In this document: positions 32,211 through 64,000 of the stretch, piece by piece | How positions within the stretch are numbered: position 1 is the stretch's first letter | How the letters are laid out: every line of letters begins with the position of its first letter | IMG/VR virus record: IMGVR_UViG_3300029415_000001 | Reading direction: 5' to 3' (one strand) | DNA from: a virus | Lineage: Duplodnaviria > Heunggongvirae > Uroviricota > Caudoviricetes | Length of the DNA stretch: 64,000 nucleotides | Position numbers and translations under genes: made by a program | The notes under the pieces: model-generated | Databases searched by the model: none | Told to the model about the DNA's origin: nothing | The model's input: the letters and a program-made list of their open reading frames with translations, nothing else

Positions 32211-32342
32211 GTGTTTTTTAACTACCGATGTTACATTGAGCCTGACCTCTTGCGCCTTGAGGCATTTTCGGTTTATGCTTATCAGGCACCTCATTAAAAC
32301 GGGTGCCGGGATTGGCCTCCCGCTTAAGTCTAAGGCGATACA

Positions 32343-35071: not shown

Positions 35072-35309
35072 AATTATGCCTCACTGTATTGACAACACAG
35101 AGCCTGAAGCTCTGACCTACTGTTTCACCCATGATCCATGCTGGGGTAATCTAACAACATTGCGCTGTGTGTAAGATGAGCAATGCATAGCTGTAATGCC
35201 GTTGTATAAGGTTTCCCTGTTTGCTCATTTCCTTCTGAGCCGCTCTACAACGCTGAAGACACATTAAATAGTGAATCCAAAGTCGTATTACGTAACGGCG
35301 GCAAAACTA

Positions 35310-35326
35310 TAATTTATTAGAGCAAT
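35310..35326 (-). promoter_or_regulatory. C1 operator-like site upstream of coi-c1 (Op99-type)
   Basis: Reverse-orientation match ATTGCTCTAATAAATTA. Confidence 0.6.
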
Positions 35327-35392
35327 TGTCAAACAACTATGAAAAACAATCCAGTTTTTAGCTGGTGGAGTGGGATTTTTCTCTCCAAATTT

Positions 35393-35409
35393 ATTGCTCT
35401 AATAATTCT
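35393..35409 (+). promoter_or_regulatory. C1 operator-like site (ATTGCTCTAATAATTCT) near loxP
   Basis: Consensus match. Confidence 0.6.
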
Positions 35410-35452
35410 TGATTTTTGTGCGCAGCTGGACGTAAACTCCTCTTCGGACCTG

Positions 35453-35486
35453 ATAACTTCGTATAGCATACATTATACGAAGTTAT
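35453..35486 (+). other. loxP recombination site
   Basis: Exact 34-bp ATAACTTCGTATA-GCATACAT-TATACGAAGTTAT. Confidence 0.99.
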
Positions 35487-35675
35487 CTTAAGGGTTATTG
35501 AACATGATCAATTTACCTGTAAATCCATACAGTTCAATACCTTATCAGGTCAAATAGTGATCACTTGATCATTTGATCAAGGTAGCGCTACGTAAAATCT
35601 GCGAAATGTTGGCGGTGTTAGTCCTACAGATTTCGCGTAGCGCACTTAGCACCACCAATCAATCAGAGGTGAAAA

Positions 35676-52142: not shown

Positions 52143-53366
52143 GAGGGCTGAAAGTTGCTCGATTACTTAAAAATAACTTTACCTAATTGGTGTAAAAAAA
52201 TGGGCGCAACAAAGCGCCCCAACAATAGAGTTTCAAATTAATAAAAAGGTAATAAATAACATGAAGTTAAATTGAGAAGAGGCAATTTTATTGCCTCTTC
52301 AAAGGTGGCATGAGGGTGCCACCTATATGCGGGCAGTGACATCACTCCCTTCCCGCATATTCTTACCTACCAAAATTAGAATTGGTAGGTCATACCAACA
52401 GCAACGATGTTGTCGGTTGCAACGCCAGATTTTTTGGTAAAATCACTTTCATCGATCAGGTTGATCTTATAGTCAACGAAAGTGGACATATTCTTGTTAA
52501 AGTAATAAGTCGCGCCCACGTCGATGTATTCAACCAGATCCTGGTTACCGAACGCACCAATATTTTCACCGCGAGAGTGTAGGTAAGCGATGGACGGACG
52601 CAGGCCGAAATCAAACTGGTATTGAGCAACGGCTTCAAAGTTTTTCGCCTTGTTCGCGATATGGTCATCACCGAAGACTGTCATATTCTGAGTTTCAGAA
52701 TAAGTTGTAGCCAGGTAAATGTTGTTTGCATCATATTTCAGGCCCGTAGCCCATACTTCAGCAGTTTTACCAGAGGCATTCAGAGGGCTGGCTTTAGCAT
52801 AGGATACCTGTCCATCAGTACGGTCAGATTTTGCATAGGTTGCAGCAACGCCAAATCCTTCATAATCGTAAGTAGCTGACAGACCAAAGCCATCACCATT
52901 AGATTCAACTTCGTCGCGGCCTTTCCAGTTGTTCACTTTTGCAGCACTATCATTTTTACCTTGATACTGCAAAGCAAAGTTCAGACCATCAACCAAGCCG
53001 AAGAAATTATTGTTACGATAGGTCGCGACGCCAGTAGCACGCTGGGTCATAAATACATCAGTCTGAGTCCAGGTATCTCCACCAAACTCCGGCAGCACGT
53101 CAGTCCAAGCGCCAACATCATAAGCTACACCGTAGTTGCGACCATAGTCGAGCGAACCATAATCGCCAAAGCGAAGCCCTGCAAACGCAAGACGAGTTTT
53201 ATCTTTATCAGAACCTTCAGTTTCAGAACGGTTACCTTTAAATTCGTACTCCCACTGACCAAAACCGGTTAACTGGTCATTAATCTGAGTTTCACCTTTG
53301 AAACCCATACGAGCATAAGTTTTATCCCCGTCATCACTAGCCGAAGAAGAGAAGTAATGCTCTGCA

Positions 53367-54695
53367 CTGATGAATCCCCTAATGATTTTGGTAAAAATCA
53401 TTAAGTTAAGGTGGATACACATCTTGTCATATGATCAAATGGTTTCGCGAAAAATCAATAATCAGACAACAAGATGTGCGAACTCGATATTTTACACGAC
53501 TCTCTTTACCAATTCTGCCCCGAATTACACTTAAAACGACTCAACAGCTTAACGTTGGCTTGCCACGCATTACTTGACTGTAAAACTCTCACTCTTACCG
53601 AACTTGGCCGTAACCTGCCAACCAAAGCGAGAACAAAACATAACATCAAACGAATCGACCGATTGTTAGGTAATCGTCACCTCCACAAAGAGCGACTCGC
53701 TGTATACCGTTGGCATGCTAGCTTTATCTGTTCGGGCAATACGATGCCCATTGTACTTGTTGACTGGTCTGATATTCGTGAGCAAAAACGACTTATGGTA
53801 TTGCGAGCTTCAGTCGCACTACACGGTCGTTCTGTTACTCTTTATGAGAAAGCGTTCCCGCTTTCAGAGCAATGTTCAAAGAAAGCTCATGACCAATTTC
53901 TAGCCGACCTTGCGAGCATTCTACCGAGTAACACCACACCGCTCATTGTCAGTGATGCTGGCTTTAAAGTGCCATGGTATAAATCCGTTGAGAAGCTGGG
54001 TTGGTACTGGTTAAGTCGAGTAAGAGGAAAAGTACAATATGCAGACCTAGGAGCGGAAAACTGGAAACCTATCAGCAACTTACATGATATGTCATCTAGT
54101 CACTCAAAGACTTTAGGCTATAAGAGGCTGACTAAAAGCAATCCAATCTCATGCCAAATTCTATTGTATAAATCTCGCTCTAAAGGCCGAAAAAATCAGC
54201 GCTCGACACGGACTCATTGTCACCACCCGTCACCTAAAATCTACTCAGCGTCGGCAAAGGAGCCATGGGTTCTAGCAACTAACTTACCTGTTGAAATTCG
54301 AACACCCAAACAACTTGTTAATATCTATTCGAAGCGAATGCAGATTGAAGAAACCTTCCGAGACTTGAAAAGTCCTGCCTACGGACTAGGCCTACGCCAT
54401 AGCCGAACGAGCAGCTCAGAGCGTTTTGATATCATGCTGCTAATCGCCCTGATGCTTCAACTAACATGTTGGCTTGCGGGCGTTCATGCTCAGAAACAAG
54501 GTTGGGACAAGCACTTCCAGGCTAACACAGTCAGAAATCGAAACGTACTCTCAACAGTTCGCTTAGGCATGGAAGTTTTGCGGCATTCTGGCTACACAAT
54601 AACAAGGGAAGACTTACTCGTGGCTGCAACCCTACTAGCTCAAAATTTATTCACACATGGTTACGCTTTGGGGAAATTATGAGGGGATCTCTCAG
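53367..54695 (+). mobile_element. IS10 (1329 bp) with 9-bp target-site duplication TGCTCTGCA
   Basis: Ends CTGATGAATCCCCTAATGATTTT and ...GAGGGGATCTCTCAG; identical 9-mer at 53358-53366 and 54696-54704. Confidence 0.97.
53474..54682 (+). CDS. IS10 transposase
   Basis: 402 aa beginning MCELDILHDSLYQFCPELHLKRLNSLTLACHALLDCKTLTLTELGRNL. Confidence 0.97.
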   Translation: MCELDILHDSLYQFCPELHLKRLNSLTLACHALLDCKTLTLTELGRNLPTKARTKHNIKRIDRLLGNRHLHKERLAVYRWHASFICSGNTMPIVLVDWSDIREQKRLMVLRASVALHGRSVTLYEKAFPLSEQCSKKAHDQFLADLASILPSNTTPLIVSDAGFKVPWYKSVEKLGWYWLSRVRGKVQYADLGAENWKPISNLHDMSSSHSKTLGYKRLTKSNPISCQILLYKSRSKGRKNQRSTRTHCHHPSPKIYSASAKEPWVLATNLPVEIRTPKQLVNIYSKRMQIEETFRDLKSPAYGLGLRHSRTSSSERFDIMLLIALMLQLTCWLAGVHAQKQGWDKHFQANTVRNRNVLSTVRLGMEVLRHSGYTITREDLLVAATLLAQNLFTHGYALGKL

Positions 54696-59598: not shown

Positions 59599-61514
59599 GC
59601 CGCTACCCCCGCTTTCTGGATTGCTACCAACAGATCAGCCAGGTGGCGAGCTGCGCCGTTAACCAGCTCTTCGTTTTCCTCAAAACGTCCGGCAGCCTGA
59701 AGGGCTGCAATCGCTTCCCGGACATTGCCCCGGGCGTTACGGATCTCCGCCATGTCAGTGCTTTGCATATCCATCACGCTATTGAGATATTCAATGGCTT
59801 TATTAGCCTCTGCATCTGCTTCGCTAACCGTTTCATCAGGCTGTGCCGGGACCGGTTCTGGTTGAGTAATCTCACCGACTTCGGCCTGCAATGCATTGAT
59901 CATGCTCTGCACCATTTTCTCGATGCCAGCGCCCCCTGGAAACGCAATATTGGGGAAAGTTTTTTGAAACTGAGTTTTCAGCATTACGCGGAACTCGTCT
60001 GGTGAGCTGGTGGCCAGCTCCAGAGCTTTTTGTGCATATTTGCCAAACGGACCATTAGTAAGTGTCTTCGCCAGGAAGTCGAAAGAATCCTCGCGAGGCA
60101 ATAACTTCAGGTCGTACTCACTCATTTGCTGATCAGAAAGCGGGGTATCGTAAGTAACAATGCCGTAGCGTGCATATTCATAATACGGGTCACCTTCATC
60201 AGGGCGCGGCAGAATTGCTTTGTTACCTTCAGGTATTGCGCCAGGGGCCGCCGGACGCATTTGCAGGGCATATCGATATGCACCTACAGAGACTTCTGGT
60301 TCAGGCAAAGAGCTATCGGTATCCTCCGCTGATTCAGGTTCGACGTTTTCCGGTTTATGTTCTTCTGGTTGGACCAGATATTCCGATACATTACCCGCTT
60401 TATAGGCTTTAAACAGCTTGCCGATCGCATCTGCCATGTCCACACCCTGTATGGATTTAGCCTTGATCATGTACACGCTGCCATCCGAATCGGTTAACTG
60501 GATATACCCTTCGCCGTCCTCAATGAATTGCTTCATTGATGCACCATTACTGAGCGTCACTTCCCCGTTCATATGCATACGATTTTTGATACTGGCAAGG
60601 CGATCCGTCAGCGCGCGAGAGTGCCCACCAGTCATCCCCGCAGGAGCAATGGTATCGCGCCCACCAGTGCGATTGAGCTGATCAATCTCCGTCTGCAAAC
60701 GCTCATTCTCTTCATAAAGAGAATCCGCTTCCGATGCAACAGCGTTAATTTTCTGCTCCAGATCTGCCTTCTGCCCTTCTACCGCTGCCACCTGATCCGC
60801 GAGGTCGCTCATGGCATCCTCTTTCTGGTCACTGTCAGCCTGTAGTTGGGTTATTTCATCAACAAGGGCTTTTTTCTTCTTCTGCGCACGCTGGAATTTT
60901 GCCGAGTTTTTCTCTGCAAGGTTGGCAAGTTTCATGGTGACCTGCGCCAGCGTCATATCACGTCCACTCATCGGAGCAACGGTGTGAGTAACGTCTTTTT
61001 TATTCAGTAAGAACTGGAAAGCAACCAGCGTATCACTATTGGTGATCCGGTTTTCCGCTGTCGGGCTATGAAACAGAATGCTGATAGTCTGACCATCACT
61101 GAGCGGAATAATGGCTGGCAGGACTGGCAGCCCGTTAACGTTACGTGCCCGGCCAATTTCAGCGCCGCCGATCGCGCGCGCGCCGCTCTGGGCCACATCC
61201 CCCGTTTTATCACTCCCCGCAGAGATTCCGGTACCATTCAGCTTCTGGTTCAATGCCCGGACAAATGCCTGCATGGTCCGGTGTAACTGCAAACGAGTAG
61301 AACTAATCGCCTCCAGTAAATCCGTAGCACACCAGTGGATCGGCGTGTCATAGAAGAACGTAGCCTCGATTTCCTCCAGGGTGTTGGATTCCGTCATCAG
61401 ATAGCGGTCCTCACCGGCCATTAATGCGCGATATTCATCATCAGTCACTGGCGGGGGAAGCACGTCAAGCCCAGGTTTAATCGTCACCCCTTTATTGATA
61501 TTGAACTGTTCCAT
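59595..61514 (-). CDS. darA: DarA-like antirestriction/head protein (639 aa)
   Basis: Length and position match P1 DarA as recalled; coiled-coil central region. Confidence 0.7.
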   Translation of the reverse strand: MEQFNINKGVTIKPGLDVLPPPVTDDEYRALMAGEDRYLMTESNTLEEIEATFFYDTPIHWCATDLLEAISSTRLQLHRTMQAFVRALNQKLNGTGISAGSDKTGDVAQSGARAIGGAEIGRARNVNGLPVLPAIIPLSDGQTISILFHSPTAENRITNSDTLVAFQFLLNKKDVTHTVAPMSGRDMTLAQVTMKLANLAEKNSAKFQRAQKKKKALVDEITQLQADSDQKEDAMSDLADQVAAVEGQKADLEQKINAVASEADSLYEENERLQTEIDQLNRTGGRDTIAPAGMTGGHSRALTDRLASIKNRMHMNGEVTLSNGASMKQFIEDGEGYIQLTDSDGSVYMIKAKSIQGVDMADAIGKLFKAYKAGNVSEYLVQPEEHKPENVEPESAEDTDSSLPEPEVSVGAYRYALQMRPAAPGAIPEGNKAILPRPDEGDPYYEYARYGIVTYDTPLSDQQMSEYDLKLLPREDSFDFLAKTLTNGPFGKYAQKALELATSSPDEFRVMLKTQFQKTFPNIAFPGGAGIEKMVQSMINALQAEVGEITQPEPVPAQPDETVSEADAEANKAIEYLNSVMDMQSTDMAEIRNARGNVREAIAALQAAGRFEENEELVNGAARHLADLLVAIQKAGVAA

Positions 61515-61515
61515 G

Positions 61516-62127
61516 TTAATTTCCTGCTTTCAGTTGCTTAAGACGGCGTTTGAGTTCGCCATTTCGGGCCTTTTCGTTATTGAGTCGGCCTGTCTCCTTA
61601 TCCTGCTTCGCCCGCAAATCAGTGATCTGCTGTTGATTGAAAGACACCGAGTTCTGCGCTGATTTATAAGCGGCAACCACCTGAGCATTCCGCTGTTTTG
61701 CCTCTTGCAGGCGCTGAAAGTTGGATTTAACTGCTGGTTTCTTGTCTACCGGATTAGCAACACGCTTCGCTTTGGCGATCAGTGATTTCTGGAATTTTGC
61801 GGAGTTTTTGCGGGCCGCTTGCCCCATGACGGTACCAAGCGTCTTGATATCTGGCGACTGTGCGTTAGGAATAGCTTTTCCATTCAGTTTCACTGCCGAT
61901 ATATCGCCAGTATCGTTTACCTGTATGGCAAGAATTTGTCCGTCGTTAAGAACCAGCTTTGCGGTTTTAACTTTAACCCCATCTTTCGTTGTTGCGCGGT
62001 TGCTGGAGTCAACCTCAATTACCGTAACACCGGTTTTATTGATCGTCGCGATAAGGGATTTCAGCCCCTTTTCATTAACCTGGTCAAAATCGACCGTTGC
62101 ATACTTATTTTTCGTCATCTGACACAT
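61516..62127 (-). CDS. Hdf-position protein (203 aa)
   Basis: ORF track; C-terminal basic coiled coil; synteny between lydB and darA. Confidence 0.5.
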   Translation of the reverse strand: MCQMTKNKYATVDFDQVNEKGLKSLIATINKTGVTVIEVDSSNRATTKDGVKVKTAKLVLNDGQILAIQVNDTGDISAVKLNGKAIPNAQSPDIKTLGTVMGQAARKNSAKFQKSLIAKAKRVANPVDKKPAVKSNFQRLQEAKQRNAQVVAAYKSAQNSVSFNQQQITDLRAKQDKETGRLNNEKARNGELKRRLKQLKAGN

Positions 62128-62548
62128 CCTGTGCGAGATTTATTACGTAACTTCTGCGGATTTGCTGAGTAACAGGGAAAATCCGATACAACGGGTTAAT
62201 GAACGAGTCGCCATGCGTAACCATGACGTTGAAATGCCACAGTCGCTCTCCTTTACCCATATATTCAGTGGGTATGTACAACCATTCACTGTTTTCGCCC
62301 TGTTCAGCCGACGTCAGACAACGTTGTTCGCCTTCAATCACTGTCGTCGGCTTCTGAACATCGCGGATCCAATATCTGACCGTTGCGCCGCGCAAAAACG
62401 GGAATTTAGACCGGTATTTGAACGGCACCCGGATGAAACCCGATTTAATTTCCACATCACCAAGTTCTAAATGCGTGATGTCCTTGCGTTTTAGCAAATA
62501 GCGATCGGCTAAGGCTAACGCAAGAACGCATACACCCCAGCCAATCAT
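62105..62548 (-). CDS. lydB: LydB-like antiholin (147 aa)
   Basis: ORF overlapping the holin gene stop; synteny. Confidence 0.6.
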   Translation of the reverse strand: MIGWGVCVLALALADRYLLKRKDITHLELGDVEIKSGFIRVPFKYRSKFPFLRGATVRYWIRDVQKPTTVIEGEQRCLTSAEQGENSEWLYIPTEYMGKGERLWHFNVMVTHGDSFINPLYRIFPVTQQIRRSYVINLAQDVSDDEK

Positions 62549-62874
62549 TTCCCGCCTCCCTTTTTCACCAAACTTGTAAGAACATTCAGAATGCTATCGA
62601 TATTCACTCGTTTCATCCCTGAAATCACCTCATGACCGTTATTGCTGGCTATCGTTACCATTAAGTACGTAATTGATAACTCCCAGCCCTCGTGTTGCCC
62701 CAATAGGTACGCCACCGCGCCAGCTGTCACTGCAACAAAGATCTCCGTAACCAATCCCAACAAATTGCCAGACTGGCGACCGTCTCGGACATCCATCAGG
62801 AACGTGCCTATCCCACCAATTACTGAAAGCAGGAGCGCAATAGCAACTGGAGCTAATTCCTGTGTGTCAAGCAC
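62545..62874 (-). CDS. lydA: LydA-like holin (109 aa)
   Basis: Small protein with two hydrophobic helices and charged C-terminus. Confidence 0.65.
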   Translation of the reverse strand: MLDTQELAPVAIALLLSVIGGIGTFLMDVRDGRQSGNLLGLVTEIFVAVTAGAVAYLLGQHEGWELSITYLMVTIASNNGHEVISGMKRVNIDSILNVLTSLVKKGGGK

Positions 62875-62941
62875 AAGTTCCCTCCTACGTTGTCAGGAGG
62901 TAATGGTATGCAAAGTAACTTCTCAATCGGTCATTTGTTGC

Positions 62942-63223
62942 TTAAGAGGCATTTCTATTGAGGTACGAATCGATAATCCTTTGTGACTTTTCAAGAATGA
63001 GCCTGTTATTGATGCTGCAAATAATAGTCACGCAATTCTGAAGACTTTCATCCATACCCTTATATTCCGCGAAATACATGCCTATAAAGCCTGCAAGTAC
63101 GGCAGCAATACACTCGGCCATCAATTGCCTGCATGACGCCTCGTAACGTTTTTCACGAACCCCATTCAGAAACGAATGCACCCCGCCAAGGATGGAGAGG
63201 AACATTATTGTGACATCAAACAT
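62942..63223 (-). CDS. holin-like membrane protein, paralog of the LydA-like protein (93 aa)
   Basis: Alignable with LydA-like sequence (LSILGGVHSFLNGVRE...AAVLAGFIGMYFAEY vs LSVIGGIGTFLMDVRD...VAVTAGAVAYLLGQH). Confidence 0.55.
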   Translation of the reverse strand: MFDVTIMFLSILGGVHSFLNGVREKRYEASCRQLMAECIAAVLAGFIGMYFAEYKGMDESLQNCVTIICSINNRLILEKSQRIIDSYLNRNAS

Positions 63224-63350
63224 AACTATTTCCTCAATAGTGAATTAAATCTCATTGGGAAACGGTATGTACTTTGTGATTTCCACACACACAGGTTTTT
63301 GTTAATTAAAATCCGCAGCTTGCTATAAATAACGATAGTGAGCAGAAAAT

Positions 63351-63911
63351 ATGCTAATAGGCTATGTACGCGTATCAACAAATGAACAAAACACTGCTTT
63401 ACAACGAAACGCTCTTGAAAGCGCAGGATGTGAGCTAATTTTTGAGGACAAGGCGAGCGGCAAAAAGGCTGAGCGCCCTGGGTTAAAAAAGGTACTCCGT
63501 ATGCTTTCCAGAGGTGATACCCTGGTCGTATGGAAGTTAGACCGTCTTGGGCGCAGCATGCGTCACTTAGTTGTGCTGGTGGAAGAGCTGCGTGACAGAG
63601 GCATTAACTTCCGGAGTCTCACTGACTCCATCGACACCAGTACACCAATGGGGCGCTTTTTCTTTCACGTAATGGGGGCGCTGGCAGAAATGGAACGTGA
63701 GCTTATCGTTGAACGTACACGCGCTGGACTTGATGCAGCTCGCGCAGAAGGTCGTATAGGTGGGCGTCGGCCTAAATACCAAGAAGAAACATGGCAGCAA
63801 ATGCGGCGATTGCTGGAGAAGGGCATCCCCCGTAAGCAGGTTGCAATCATCTATGATGTGGCTGTTTCCACGCTTTATAAGAAGTTTCCGGCGTCATCAT
63901 TTCAATCCTAA
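63351..63911 (+). CDS. cin: Cin serine DNA invertase
   Basis: 186 aa; catalytic Ser in MLIGYVRVSTNEQ; resolvase/invertase family; matches P1 Cin as recalled. Confidence 0.95.
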   Translation: MLIGYVRVSTNEQNTALQRNALESAGCELIFEDKASGKKAERPGLKKVLRMLSRGDTLVVWKLDRLGRSMRHLVVLVEELRDRGINFRSLTDSIDTSTPMGRFFFHVMGALAEMERELIVERTRAGLDAARAEGRIGGRRPKYQEETWQQMRRLLEKGIPRKQVAIIYDVAVSTLYKKFPASSFQS

Positions 63912-63928
63912 ACCTTGGTTTAAGAGAA
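63901..63928 (+). other. cixL-like crossover site overlapping the cin 3' end
   Basis: TTCAATCCTAAACCTTGGTTTAAGAGAA with central AAACC-TT-GGTTT dyad, typical of Din-family sites. Confidence 0.7.
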
Positions 63929-64000
63929 CTCGGTACCAGCGGTGAAAAGATCCCCCTGTTGAGCACGGCTAACACATGGAGTGCACGCCAGACTTTCAAC

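What the first reader, a model, noticed from the sequence alone, without database searches (positions are those of the whole stretch)
63901..63928. cixL crossover site overlapping the cin stop; invertible segment begins at window end
The dyad TTCAATCCTAAACCTTGGTTTAAGAGAA overlaps the last codons of cin, so the invertible tail-fibre C segment should start immediately downstream and run past position 64000.
Basis: partly seen in the sequence, partly recalled or inferred. Interest (0 to 1): 0.2.

Follow-up and report, generated by a model that had tools for sequence, protein, structure and literature searches.

The report
Phage P1 cixL inversion crossover site
This is the long-known left crossover site (cixL) of bacteriophage P1's Cin DNA-inversion switch, which flips a tail-fibre gene segment to change host range; it is identical to the annotated P1 reference, so it is ordinary.

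Summary
That ORF is a serine DNA invertase, 186/186 identical to P1 Cin. Window 63294-64000 is 100% identical to the phage P1 reference. The reverse complement of 63903-63928 is the published 26-bp cixL (TTCTCTTAAACC AA GGTTTAGGATTG). P1's annotation places the crossover between 63915 and 63916, so the invertible C segment starts inside the site and only its first 85 bases are in the window. These bases encode the first 28 residues of the tail-fibre part that follows the crossover.

No second cix-like site exists in the window. In four relatives (P1, pUTAK-11-1 and two ETEC plasmids) the inverted partner cixR lies 3.85-4.26 kb downstream. Two of those plasmids differ by an exact reverse-complement of the 4256-bp cix-bounded segment, so both orientations occur in nature.

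Three qualifications. The dyad symmetry alone is no more than chance; the significance comes from identity to cixL and from context. The window's own downstream sequence could not be retrieved, so its partner site is inferred. Orphan cixL remnants do exist (pDETEC72).

The parts
63351..63911 (+). cin, a serine DNA invertase gene (186 aa plus TAA stop). The catalytic Ser9 is present.
   Evidence: ORF. Pfam Resolvase E 4.6e-51 and HTH_7 E 1.9e-18. Match to Gin structure 3uj3 at E 8.6e-89. 186/186 identical to P1 Cin. Annotated cin in P1 at the equivalent position.
63369..63440 (.). Recombinational enhancer (Fis-dependent) inside the 5' part of cin, assigned by identity to P1.
   Evidence: 72/72 identical to the P1 feature 'enhancer of Cin-mediated C-segment inversion', L001 6470-6541. 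Its function was not tested here.
63903..63928 (-). cixL, the 26-bp Cin recombination site. Written on the minus strand it reads TTCTCTTAAACC AA GGTTTAGGATTG. The outer half-site (63903-63914) overlaps cin codons 185-186 and the stop codon.
   Evidence: Identical to the published cixL (PMC3241671 Table 3). The P1 annotation gives cixL at 63906-63925 and the Cin-bound region at 63902-63932 in window coordinates.
63915..63916 (.). Central crossover dinucleotide (TT on the plus strand, AA on the minus strand). It is the left boundary of the invertible segment and lies 4 bases beyond the cin stop, so inversion leaves cin intact.
   Evidence: P1 annotation: 'crossover site within cixL, between nt 32224/32225', which maps to window 63915/63916. 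It is the central AA of the Din-family sites.
63916..64000 (+). First 85 bp of the invertible C segment. This is the outer end of the ~0.62-kb inverted repeat and the start of the silent Sv' tail-fibre reading frame (codons from 63917).
   Evidence: 100% identical to P1. Also identical to the reverse complement of the cixR-proximal end of the segment. The 636-nt inverted repeat in P1 is shown. Translation matches P1 S after the crossover.
63229..63312 (+). Predicted cin promoters P2cin (63229-63255) and P1cin (63280-63312), mapped from the P1 annotation.
   Evidence: annotation mapped with offset 56899. The window differs from P1 at 63235, 63251, 63290 and 63293. These are predictions only.

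Best explanation
The site is cixL, the cin-proximal recombination site of the bacteriophage P1 Cin/cix DNA-inversion switch, here carried by a mosaic P1-like (Punavirus) phage or plasmid-prophage.

Mechanism, taken from established knowledge of Hin/Gin/Cin invertases:
1. A Cin dimer binds each 26-bp cix site.
2. The two sites, in inverted orientation about 4 kb apart, meet at the Fis-bound enhancer inside the 5' end of cin and form an invertasome on supercoiled DNA.
3. The catalytic serines cut both strands at the central 2-bp AA/TT.
4. One subunit pair rotates 180 degrees and the DNA is religated, which inverts the segment.

cixR lies inside tail-fibre gene S. Inversion therefore joins the constant part Sc either to Sv-U or to Sv'-U' and switches host range.

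Shown here: the identity of cin, the enhancer, cixL and the first 85 bp of the segment with P1; the partner site and both orientations in relatives. Inferred: that this genome has cixR beyond position 64000, and that the system is active.
For: - The sequence is at the stated coordinates and the stop codon lies inside the site.
- Window 63294-64000 is 100% identical to the P1 reference; all 12 mismatches in 62900-64000 lie at 62927-63293.
- P1's annotation covers cin, the enhancer, the Cin binding site, cixL, the crossover, a 4256-bp invertible segment, Sv', U', U, S and cixR.
- The 26/26 match to the published cixL, plus the Din-family site table.
- The recombinase carries the Resolvase and HTH_7 domains and is close to Gin.
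- P1 has 636-nt inverted repeats whose outer ends are the cix sites.
- The partner core is in inverted orientation in P1, pUTAK-11-1, ETEC1730 and ETEC1706.
- The ETEC1730 and ETEC1706 plasmids differ by an exact (100%) reverse complement of the 4256-bp cix-bounded segment, with the same flanks; cixL and cixR keep their outer half-sites in both.
- The tail-fibre assembly genes swap position and strand between those two records.
- The literature describes Cin-mediated C-segment inversion at cixL/cixR and its stimulation by Fis, and the invertasome mechanism.
Against: - Only one cix site is in the window, and no other site reaches 18/26. The window's own downstream sequence could not be found, so the partner is inferred from relatives.
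- Orphan cixL remnants exist. In pDETEC72 an IS26 cuts the segment about 250 bp after cin.
- The natural inversion between L004 and L005 cannot be placed more precisely than somewhere within the 0.62-kb inverted repeats. It does not by itself prove crossover at cix rather than homologous recombination between the repeats.
- No activity was measured here.
Confidence: 0.95

Rival explanations
1. Orphan cixL: the site and cin are intact, but in this genome the C segment beyond position 64000 is truncated or cixR is lost, for example through an IS insertion. No inversion could then occur.
For: pDETEC72 (NZ_CP116089) carries the same cin and cixL, but an IS26 follows about 250 bp after cin and there is no second copy of the repeat. 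The window itself holds an IS4-family element elsewhere.
Against: Of the 25 best plasmid records, 24 have a second place, which I take to be the inverted-repeat copy (not checked record by record). The window upstream is a continuous, apparently complete P1-like genome rather than an IS-bounded fragment. All four intact relatives examined have cixR.
Confidence: 0.05
2. The segment flips mainly by RecA-dependent homologous recombination between the 0.62-kb inverted repeats, and the 26-bp site is incidental.
For: The repeats are 636 nt long and 98% complementary. The natural inversion seen cannot be mapped more finely than the repeats.
Against: The repeat ends exactly at the cix sites. The site matches the Din-family consensus and is the annotated Cin binding site. 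The published work cited attributes inversion to Cin at the cix sites. Closest relative pUTAK-11-1 keeps identical cixL and cixR although its repeats are only 186 nt long and 89% alike.
Confidence: 0.02
3. The dyad is a chance palindrome or a transcription terminator hairpin at the end of the recombinase gene.
For: Dyads of this quality are as common in the window as in shuffled sequence.
Against: There is a 26/26 match to cixL and 707 bp of perfect identity with P1. The terminator scan finds nothing at the site. A 6-bp A+T-rich stem with a 2-base loop cannot form a stable hairpin (inference from the sequence).
Confidence: 0.01

Closest known systems
Bacteriophage P1 Cin/cix C-segment inversion system (cixL of the P1 reference, AF234172 / NC_005856)
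   Same: The cin promoter region from 63294 onward, cin, the enhancer, cixL and the first 85 bp of the C segment are 100% identical. The Cin protein is 186/186 identical. The site equals the published cixL.
   Different: Nothing differs within the feature. The surrounding genome is a mosaic. The lydC side has 12 substitutions in about 370 bp. The first 50 kb of the window is closer to phage vB_EcoM-673R5 than to P1. The rest of the segment and cixR are outside the window.
Phage Mu Gin/gix G-segment inversion
   Same: Homologous invertase (Gin structure match at E 8.6e-89). It also uses 26-bp sites with a 2-bp core and has the same Sc / Sv-U / U'-Sv' tail-fibre logic.
   Different: In Mu, gin (35092-35673) starts 67 bp beyond the G-segment boundary (35025) and reads away from the segment. 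Here cin reads towards the segment and its stop codon lies inside cixL. The gix core is GA, not AA. Mu's annotation shows no long terminal inverted repeats, unlike the ~0.62-kb repeats of P1; I did not run a repeat search on Mu.
Salmonella Hin/hix flagellar phase switch
   Same: Same Din subfamily. It uses 26-bp hix sites with an AA core, a Fis-bound enhancer inside the 5' end of the invertase gene, and an invertasome mechanism.
   Different: hin lies inside its ~1-kb invertible segment, and the switch moves a promoter rather than exchanging gene 3' ends.
Plasmid p15B Min / mix multiple-inversion system
   Same: A P1-related plasmid with a Din-family invertase. Parts of the P1 cin region are annotated as 83-89% identical to p15B. 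The mix sites share the TTCCCC(C/T)AAACC AA half-site pattern.
   Different: Min uses six mix sites and shuffles several tail-fibre cassettes. P1-type elements examined here have two sites. Whether this genome has more than two cannot be seen from the window.

Membership tests
Din-family (Hin/Gin/Cin/Pin) serine DNA-invertase switch | A small serine recombinase with an N-terminal catalytic domain (active-site Ser near residue 9-10) and a C-terminal helix-turn-helix. | tested here: met
   PF00239 at E 4.6e-51 (residues 3-135) and PF02796 at E 1.9e-18 (138-181). Full-length match to Gin 3uj3 at E 8.6e-89, with Ser at position 9.
Din-family (Hin/Gin/Cin/Pin) serine DNA-invertase switch | [quoted passage not shown] | tested here: met
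   63903-63928 on the minus strand reads TTCTCTTAAACC AA GGTTTAGGATTG. The inner half-site fits the consensus fully. The outer half-site departs at its three outermost bases, as in the published cixL.
Din-family (Hin/Gin/Cin/Pin) serine DNA-invertase switch | A second site in inverted orientation bounding the invertible segment. | not testable with these tools
   The window has no second site (best other match 17/26) and ends 85 bp into the segment. The source replicon was not found. The feature is met in P1, pUTAK-11-1, ETEC1730 and ETEC1706, with the partner 3854-4256 bp away.
Din-family (Hin/Gin/Cin/Pin) serine DNA-invertase switch | A cis-acting Fis-dependent recombinational enhancer, typically inside the 5' end of the invertase gene. 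| tested here: met
   Window 63369-63440 is 72/72 identical to P1's annotated enhancer. Fis binding and enhancer activity were not tested here; the literature basis is.
Din-family (Hin/Gin/Cin/Pin) serine DNA-invertase switch | The segment is actually found in both orientations. | tested here: met
   Met in relatives only. The L004 and L005 segments are exact reverse complements with identical flanks. cin is joined to Sv' in H74-H84 and to Sv in H86-H88. Not testable for the window's own genome.
Phage P1 cixL specifically | Sequence identity to the experimentally defined cixL, and its position overlapping the 3' end of cin. | tested here: met
   26/26 identity to the published site. Same position relative to the cin stop codon as in the annotated P1 reference.
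Phage P1 cixL specifically | The adjacent DNA is the inverted-repeat end of the C segment and encodes the shared N-terminal part of Sv/Sv'. | tested here: met
   63916-64000 is identical to both ends of the P1 segment. Its translation equals the P1 S residues that follow the crossover.

The most novel reading that the evidence does not exclude
In this mosaic P1-like element, the part of the invertible segment beyond position 64000 may differ from P1's. It could carry different tail-fibre or chaperone cassettes with short repeats, as in its closest relative pUTAK-11-1 (3854-bp segment, 186-nt repeats). Less likely, it could carry more than two cix sites, like the Min shufflon of p15B. Either would be a host-range variant of a known switch, not a new mechanism.
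Probability: 0.3. Interest if true: 0.12.

Novelty: already known. Interest (0 to 1): 0.04.

Why it matters
It adds nothing to what is known of the mechanism. The Cin/cix switch was defined in the early 1980s and is annotated base by base in the P1 reference genome.

Its practical value is for annotation:
- It marks where an assembly of this replicon can legitimately exist in two orientations.
- It explains why automated pipelines call a truncated 'phage tail protein' next to the recombinase.
- It shows that the tail-fibre (host-range) phenotype of this P1-like element is phase-variable.

Tried and rejected
1. Dyad symmetry as evidence. I counted dyads of equal quality in the window and in shuffles. 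They are not enriched, so symmetry alone was dropped as an argument.

2. Terminator reading. The promoter/terminator scan of 63200-64000 found no terminator at the site.

3. Retrieving the window's own downstream DNA. Exact-pattern scans with the window-specific lydC-cin spacer allele (106 nt and 61 nt) found nothing in genome contigs (two scans) or viral contigs. No record in the phage, plasmid or E. coli collections exceeds 99.0% identity over 61000-64000.

4. Counting orientations by the '>=80% covered' statistic. This was confounded for the inverted query, because the Sc-cixR side of reference-orientation records also covers 92% of it. Only hits that start at query base 1 (H86-H88) were used, and the point was then settled by direct comparison.

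5. Looking for a second or quasi cix site in the window. None reaches 18/26.

6. Reading the P1 genome paper by the PMC id I remembered. It is not held in the library.

Full report
**Observation.** Window 63901-63928 reads TTCAATCCTAAACCTTGGTTTAAGAGAA, exactly as reported. A 186-codon ORF on the plus strand (63351-63911) ends with TAA at 63909-63911, inside the string.

The string contains a 26-bp unit at 63903-63928. Its two 12-bp half-sites are CAATCCTAAACC and, as reverse complement, TTCTCTTAAACC. They match at 8 of 12 positions around a central TT at 63915-63916.

The symmetry alone is not remarkable. The window has 20 perfect 6+2+6 dyad cores and 232 dyads of at least 8/12, against 15-25 and 135-196 in shuffled copies. 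The dyad is therefore real, but it is not the evidence.

**What it is.**
- The ORF is a small serine recombinase. It matches Pfam Resolvase at E 4.6e-51 and HTH_7 at E 1.9e-18. Over its full length it aligns to the crystallised Mu Gin invertase at E 8.6e-89, with the catalytic serine at position 9.
- A megablast of 62900-64000 against phage records gives phage P1 at 98.9% identity over the whole query.
- All 12 differences lie at 62927-63293, on the lydC side and in the spacer. From 63294 to 64000 the window is 100% identical to P1.
- The protein is 186/186 identical to P1 Cin, and the 72-bp stretch 63369-63440 is identical to P1's annotated recombinational enhancer.

**Mapping the P1 annotation onto the window** (window = L001 coordinate + 56899).
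- Cin binding site: 63902-63932.
- 'Recombination site cixL': 63906-63925.
- Crossover: between 63915 and 63916.
- The 4256-bp invertible C segment then follows: Sv', U', U and the variable part of S.
- cixR lies at the far end, inside tail-fibre gene S.

The reverse complement of 63903-63928 is TTCTCTTAAACC AA GGTTTAGGATTG. This is letter for letter the cixL listed in a published table of Din-family sites (PMC3241671 Table 3). The next best match to cixL or cixR elsewhere in the 64-kb window is 17/26.

**The 85 bases after the crossover.**
- Window 63916-64000 is identical both to P1's cixL-proximal end and to the reverse complement of its cixR-proximal end. These bases are the outer end of the 636-nt inverted repeats that bound the segment.
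- Read from 63917, they encode GLRELGTSGEKIPLLSTANTWSARQTFN. In the P1 S protein, these same residues follow ...SILAVIQYL at the cixR crossover.
- The window therefore ends in the silent copy of the tail-fibre variable part.
- Because these bases lie in the repeat, the orientation state of the segment in this genome cannot be read from the window.
- The crossover lies 4 bases beyond the cin stop, so inversion does not alter cin.

**The partner site and inversion.** The window ends too early for that test. Exact-pattern scans with the window's own spacer allele found no source record, and no record in the three annotated collections exceeds 99.0% identity. I therefore tested relatives.

- The core TTCTCTTAAACCAAGGT occurs once on each strand in P1, in the closest plasmid pUTAK-11-1, and in two ETEC plasmids. 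It bounds segments of 4256, 3854, 4256 and 4256 bp. All four have the same cixL and the same cixR, TTCTCTTAAACC AA GGTATTGGATAA.
- The plasmids of ETEC1730 and ETEC1706 have essentially identical flanks (left 500 bases 100%, right 500 bases 99.8%). Their 4256-bp segments are exact reverse complements of one another (identity 1.0 as reverse complement, 0.49 direct). The outer half-sites stay in place.
- The two tail-fibre assembly genes swap position and strand between those two records.
- Other records join cin either to Sv' (H74-H84) or to Sv (H86-H88).

Both orientations therefore exist in nature. The breakpoint cannot be placed more finely than the repeats, so this comparison is consistent with crossover at cix but does not by itself prove it.

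**Mechanism.** This part follows from established knowledge of the Hin/Gin/Cin invertases and was not tested here.
1. Cin dimers bind cixL and cixR.
2. The sites meet at the Fis-bound enhancer in the 5' part of cin on supercoiled DNA.
3. The serines cut at the central AA/TT.
4. A subunit pair rotates 180 degrees and the DNA is religated (for Hin; for Cin, cix and Fis).
5. Inversion fuses the constant part of S to Sv-U or to Sv'-U', which changes host range.

**Comparison with Mu.** In Mu, gin starts 67 bp outside the G-segment boundary and reads away from the segment. Here, as in P1, cin reads towards the segment and ends inside cixL. This is the known P1 arrangement.

**Rivals.**
- Orphan cixL. 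This is possible in principle. In pDETEC72 a P1 fragment with the same cin and cixL is cut by IS26 about 250 bp after cin. However, 24 of the 25 best plasmid records have a second matching place, which I take to be the second repeat copy without having checked each record. The window is also a continuous P1-like genome rather than an IS-bounded fragment.
- Homologous recombination between the repeats cannot be excluded from sequence alone. It runs against the published attribution of C-segment inversion to Cin at the cix sites. It also runs against the conservation of identical cix sites in a relative whose repeats are only 186 nt long and 89% alike.
- A terminator or chance palindrome is excluded.

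**Verdict.** The feature is the textbook P1 cixL and is already known. Interest is low.

Noticed in passing
window 52376-54682: An OmpC-like porin ORF sits at 52376-53422 on the minus strand (Pfam Porin_1, E 1e-141). It is 95% identical to ompC of the P1-like plasmid pUTAK-11-1, but only from about residue 36 of that protein, so the signal-peptide end is replaced. An IS4-family transposase gene (53474-54682, plus strand; NCBIfam NF033591, E 4e-121) lies directly beside its 5' end. The phage-borne porin gene therefore looks cut by an IS.
   Followed up: partly
window 1-50000 versus 63294-64000: The genome is a mosaic P1-like element. The first 50 kb is closest to phage vB_EcoM-673R5 (94-95% covered, 97-98.6% identity). 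That phage matches the cin region only up to about 177 nt into cin, at 81% identity (H18). SJ46 likewise matches only up to query base 685, at 91%. The last 707 bp of the window are 100% P1. This suggests recombination breakpoints inside or near the invertase gene.
   Followed up: partly
window 63229-63312: Four of the 12 differences from P1 fall in the predicted cin promoters. 63251 (C here, A in P1) changes the predicted P2cin -10 hexamer from TATCAT to TCTCAT. 63235 lies just after the P2cin -35 hexamer. 63290 and 63293 lie in the P1cin spacer. Any effect on cin expression is unknown.
   Followed up: no
L007 (NZ_CP116089.1, pDETEC72) 9352-10865: A conjugative IncF resistance plasmid carries a P1 fragment (ddrB to cin) bounded by IS26 copies. 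cixL is intact, but the C segment is cut about 250 bp after cin. This is an orphan crossover site next to an intact invertase gene.
   Followed up: partly
L002 (NZ_CP157142.1, pUTAK-11-1) 9906-13781: The closest relative over 61000-64000 has a shorter invertible segment (3854 bp), with terminal inverted repeats of only 186 nt at 89% identity. Its cixL and cixR are nevertheless identical to P1's. The crossover sites are thus better conserved than the repeats around them.
   Followed up: partly
window 5025-7254: Three tRNA genes (Asn-GTT, Thr-TGT, Met-CAT) lie on the plus strand.
   Followed up: no
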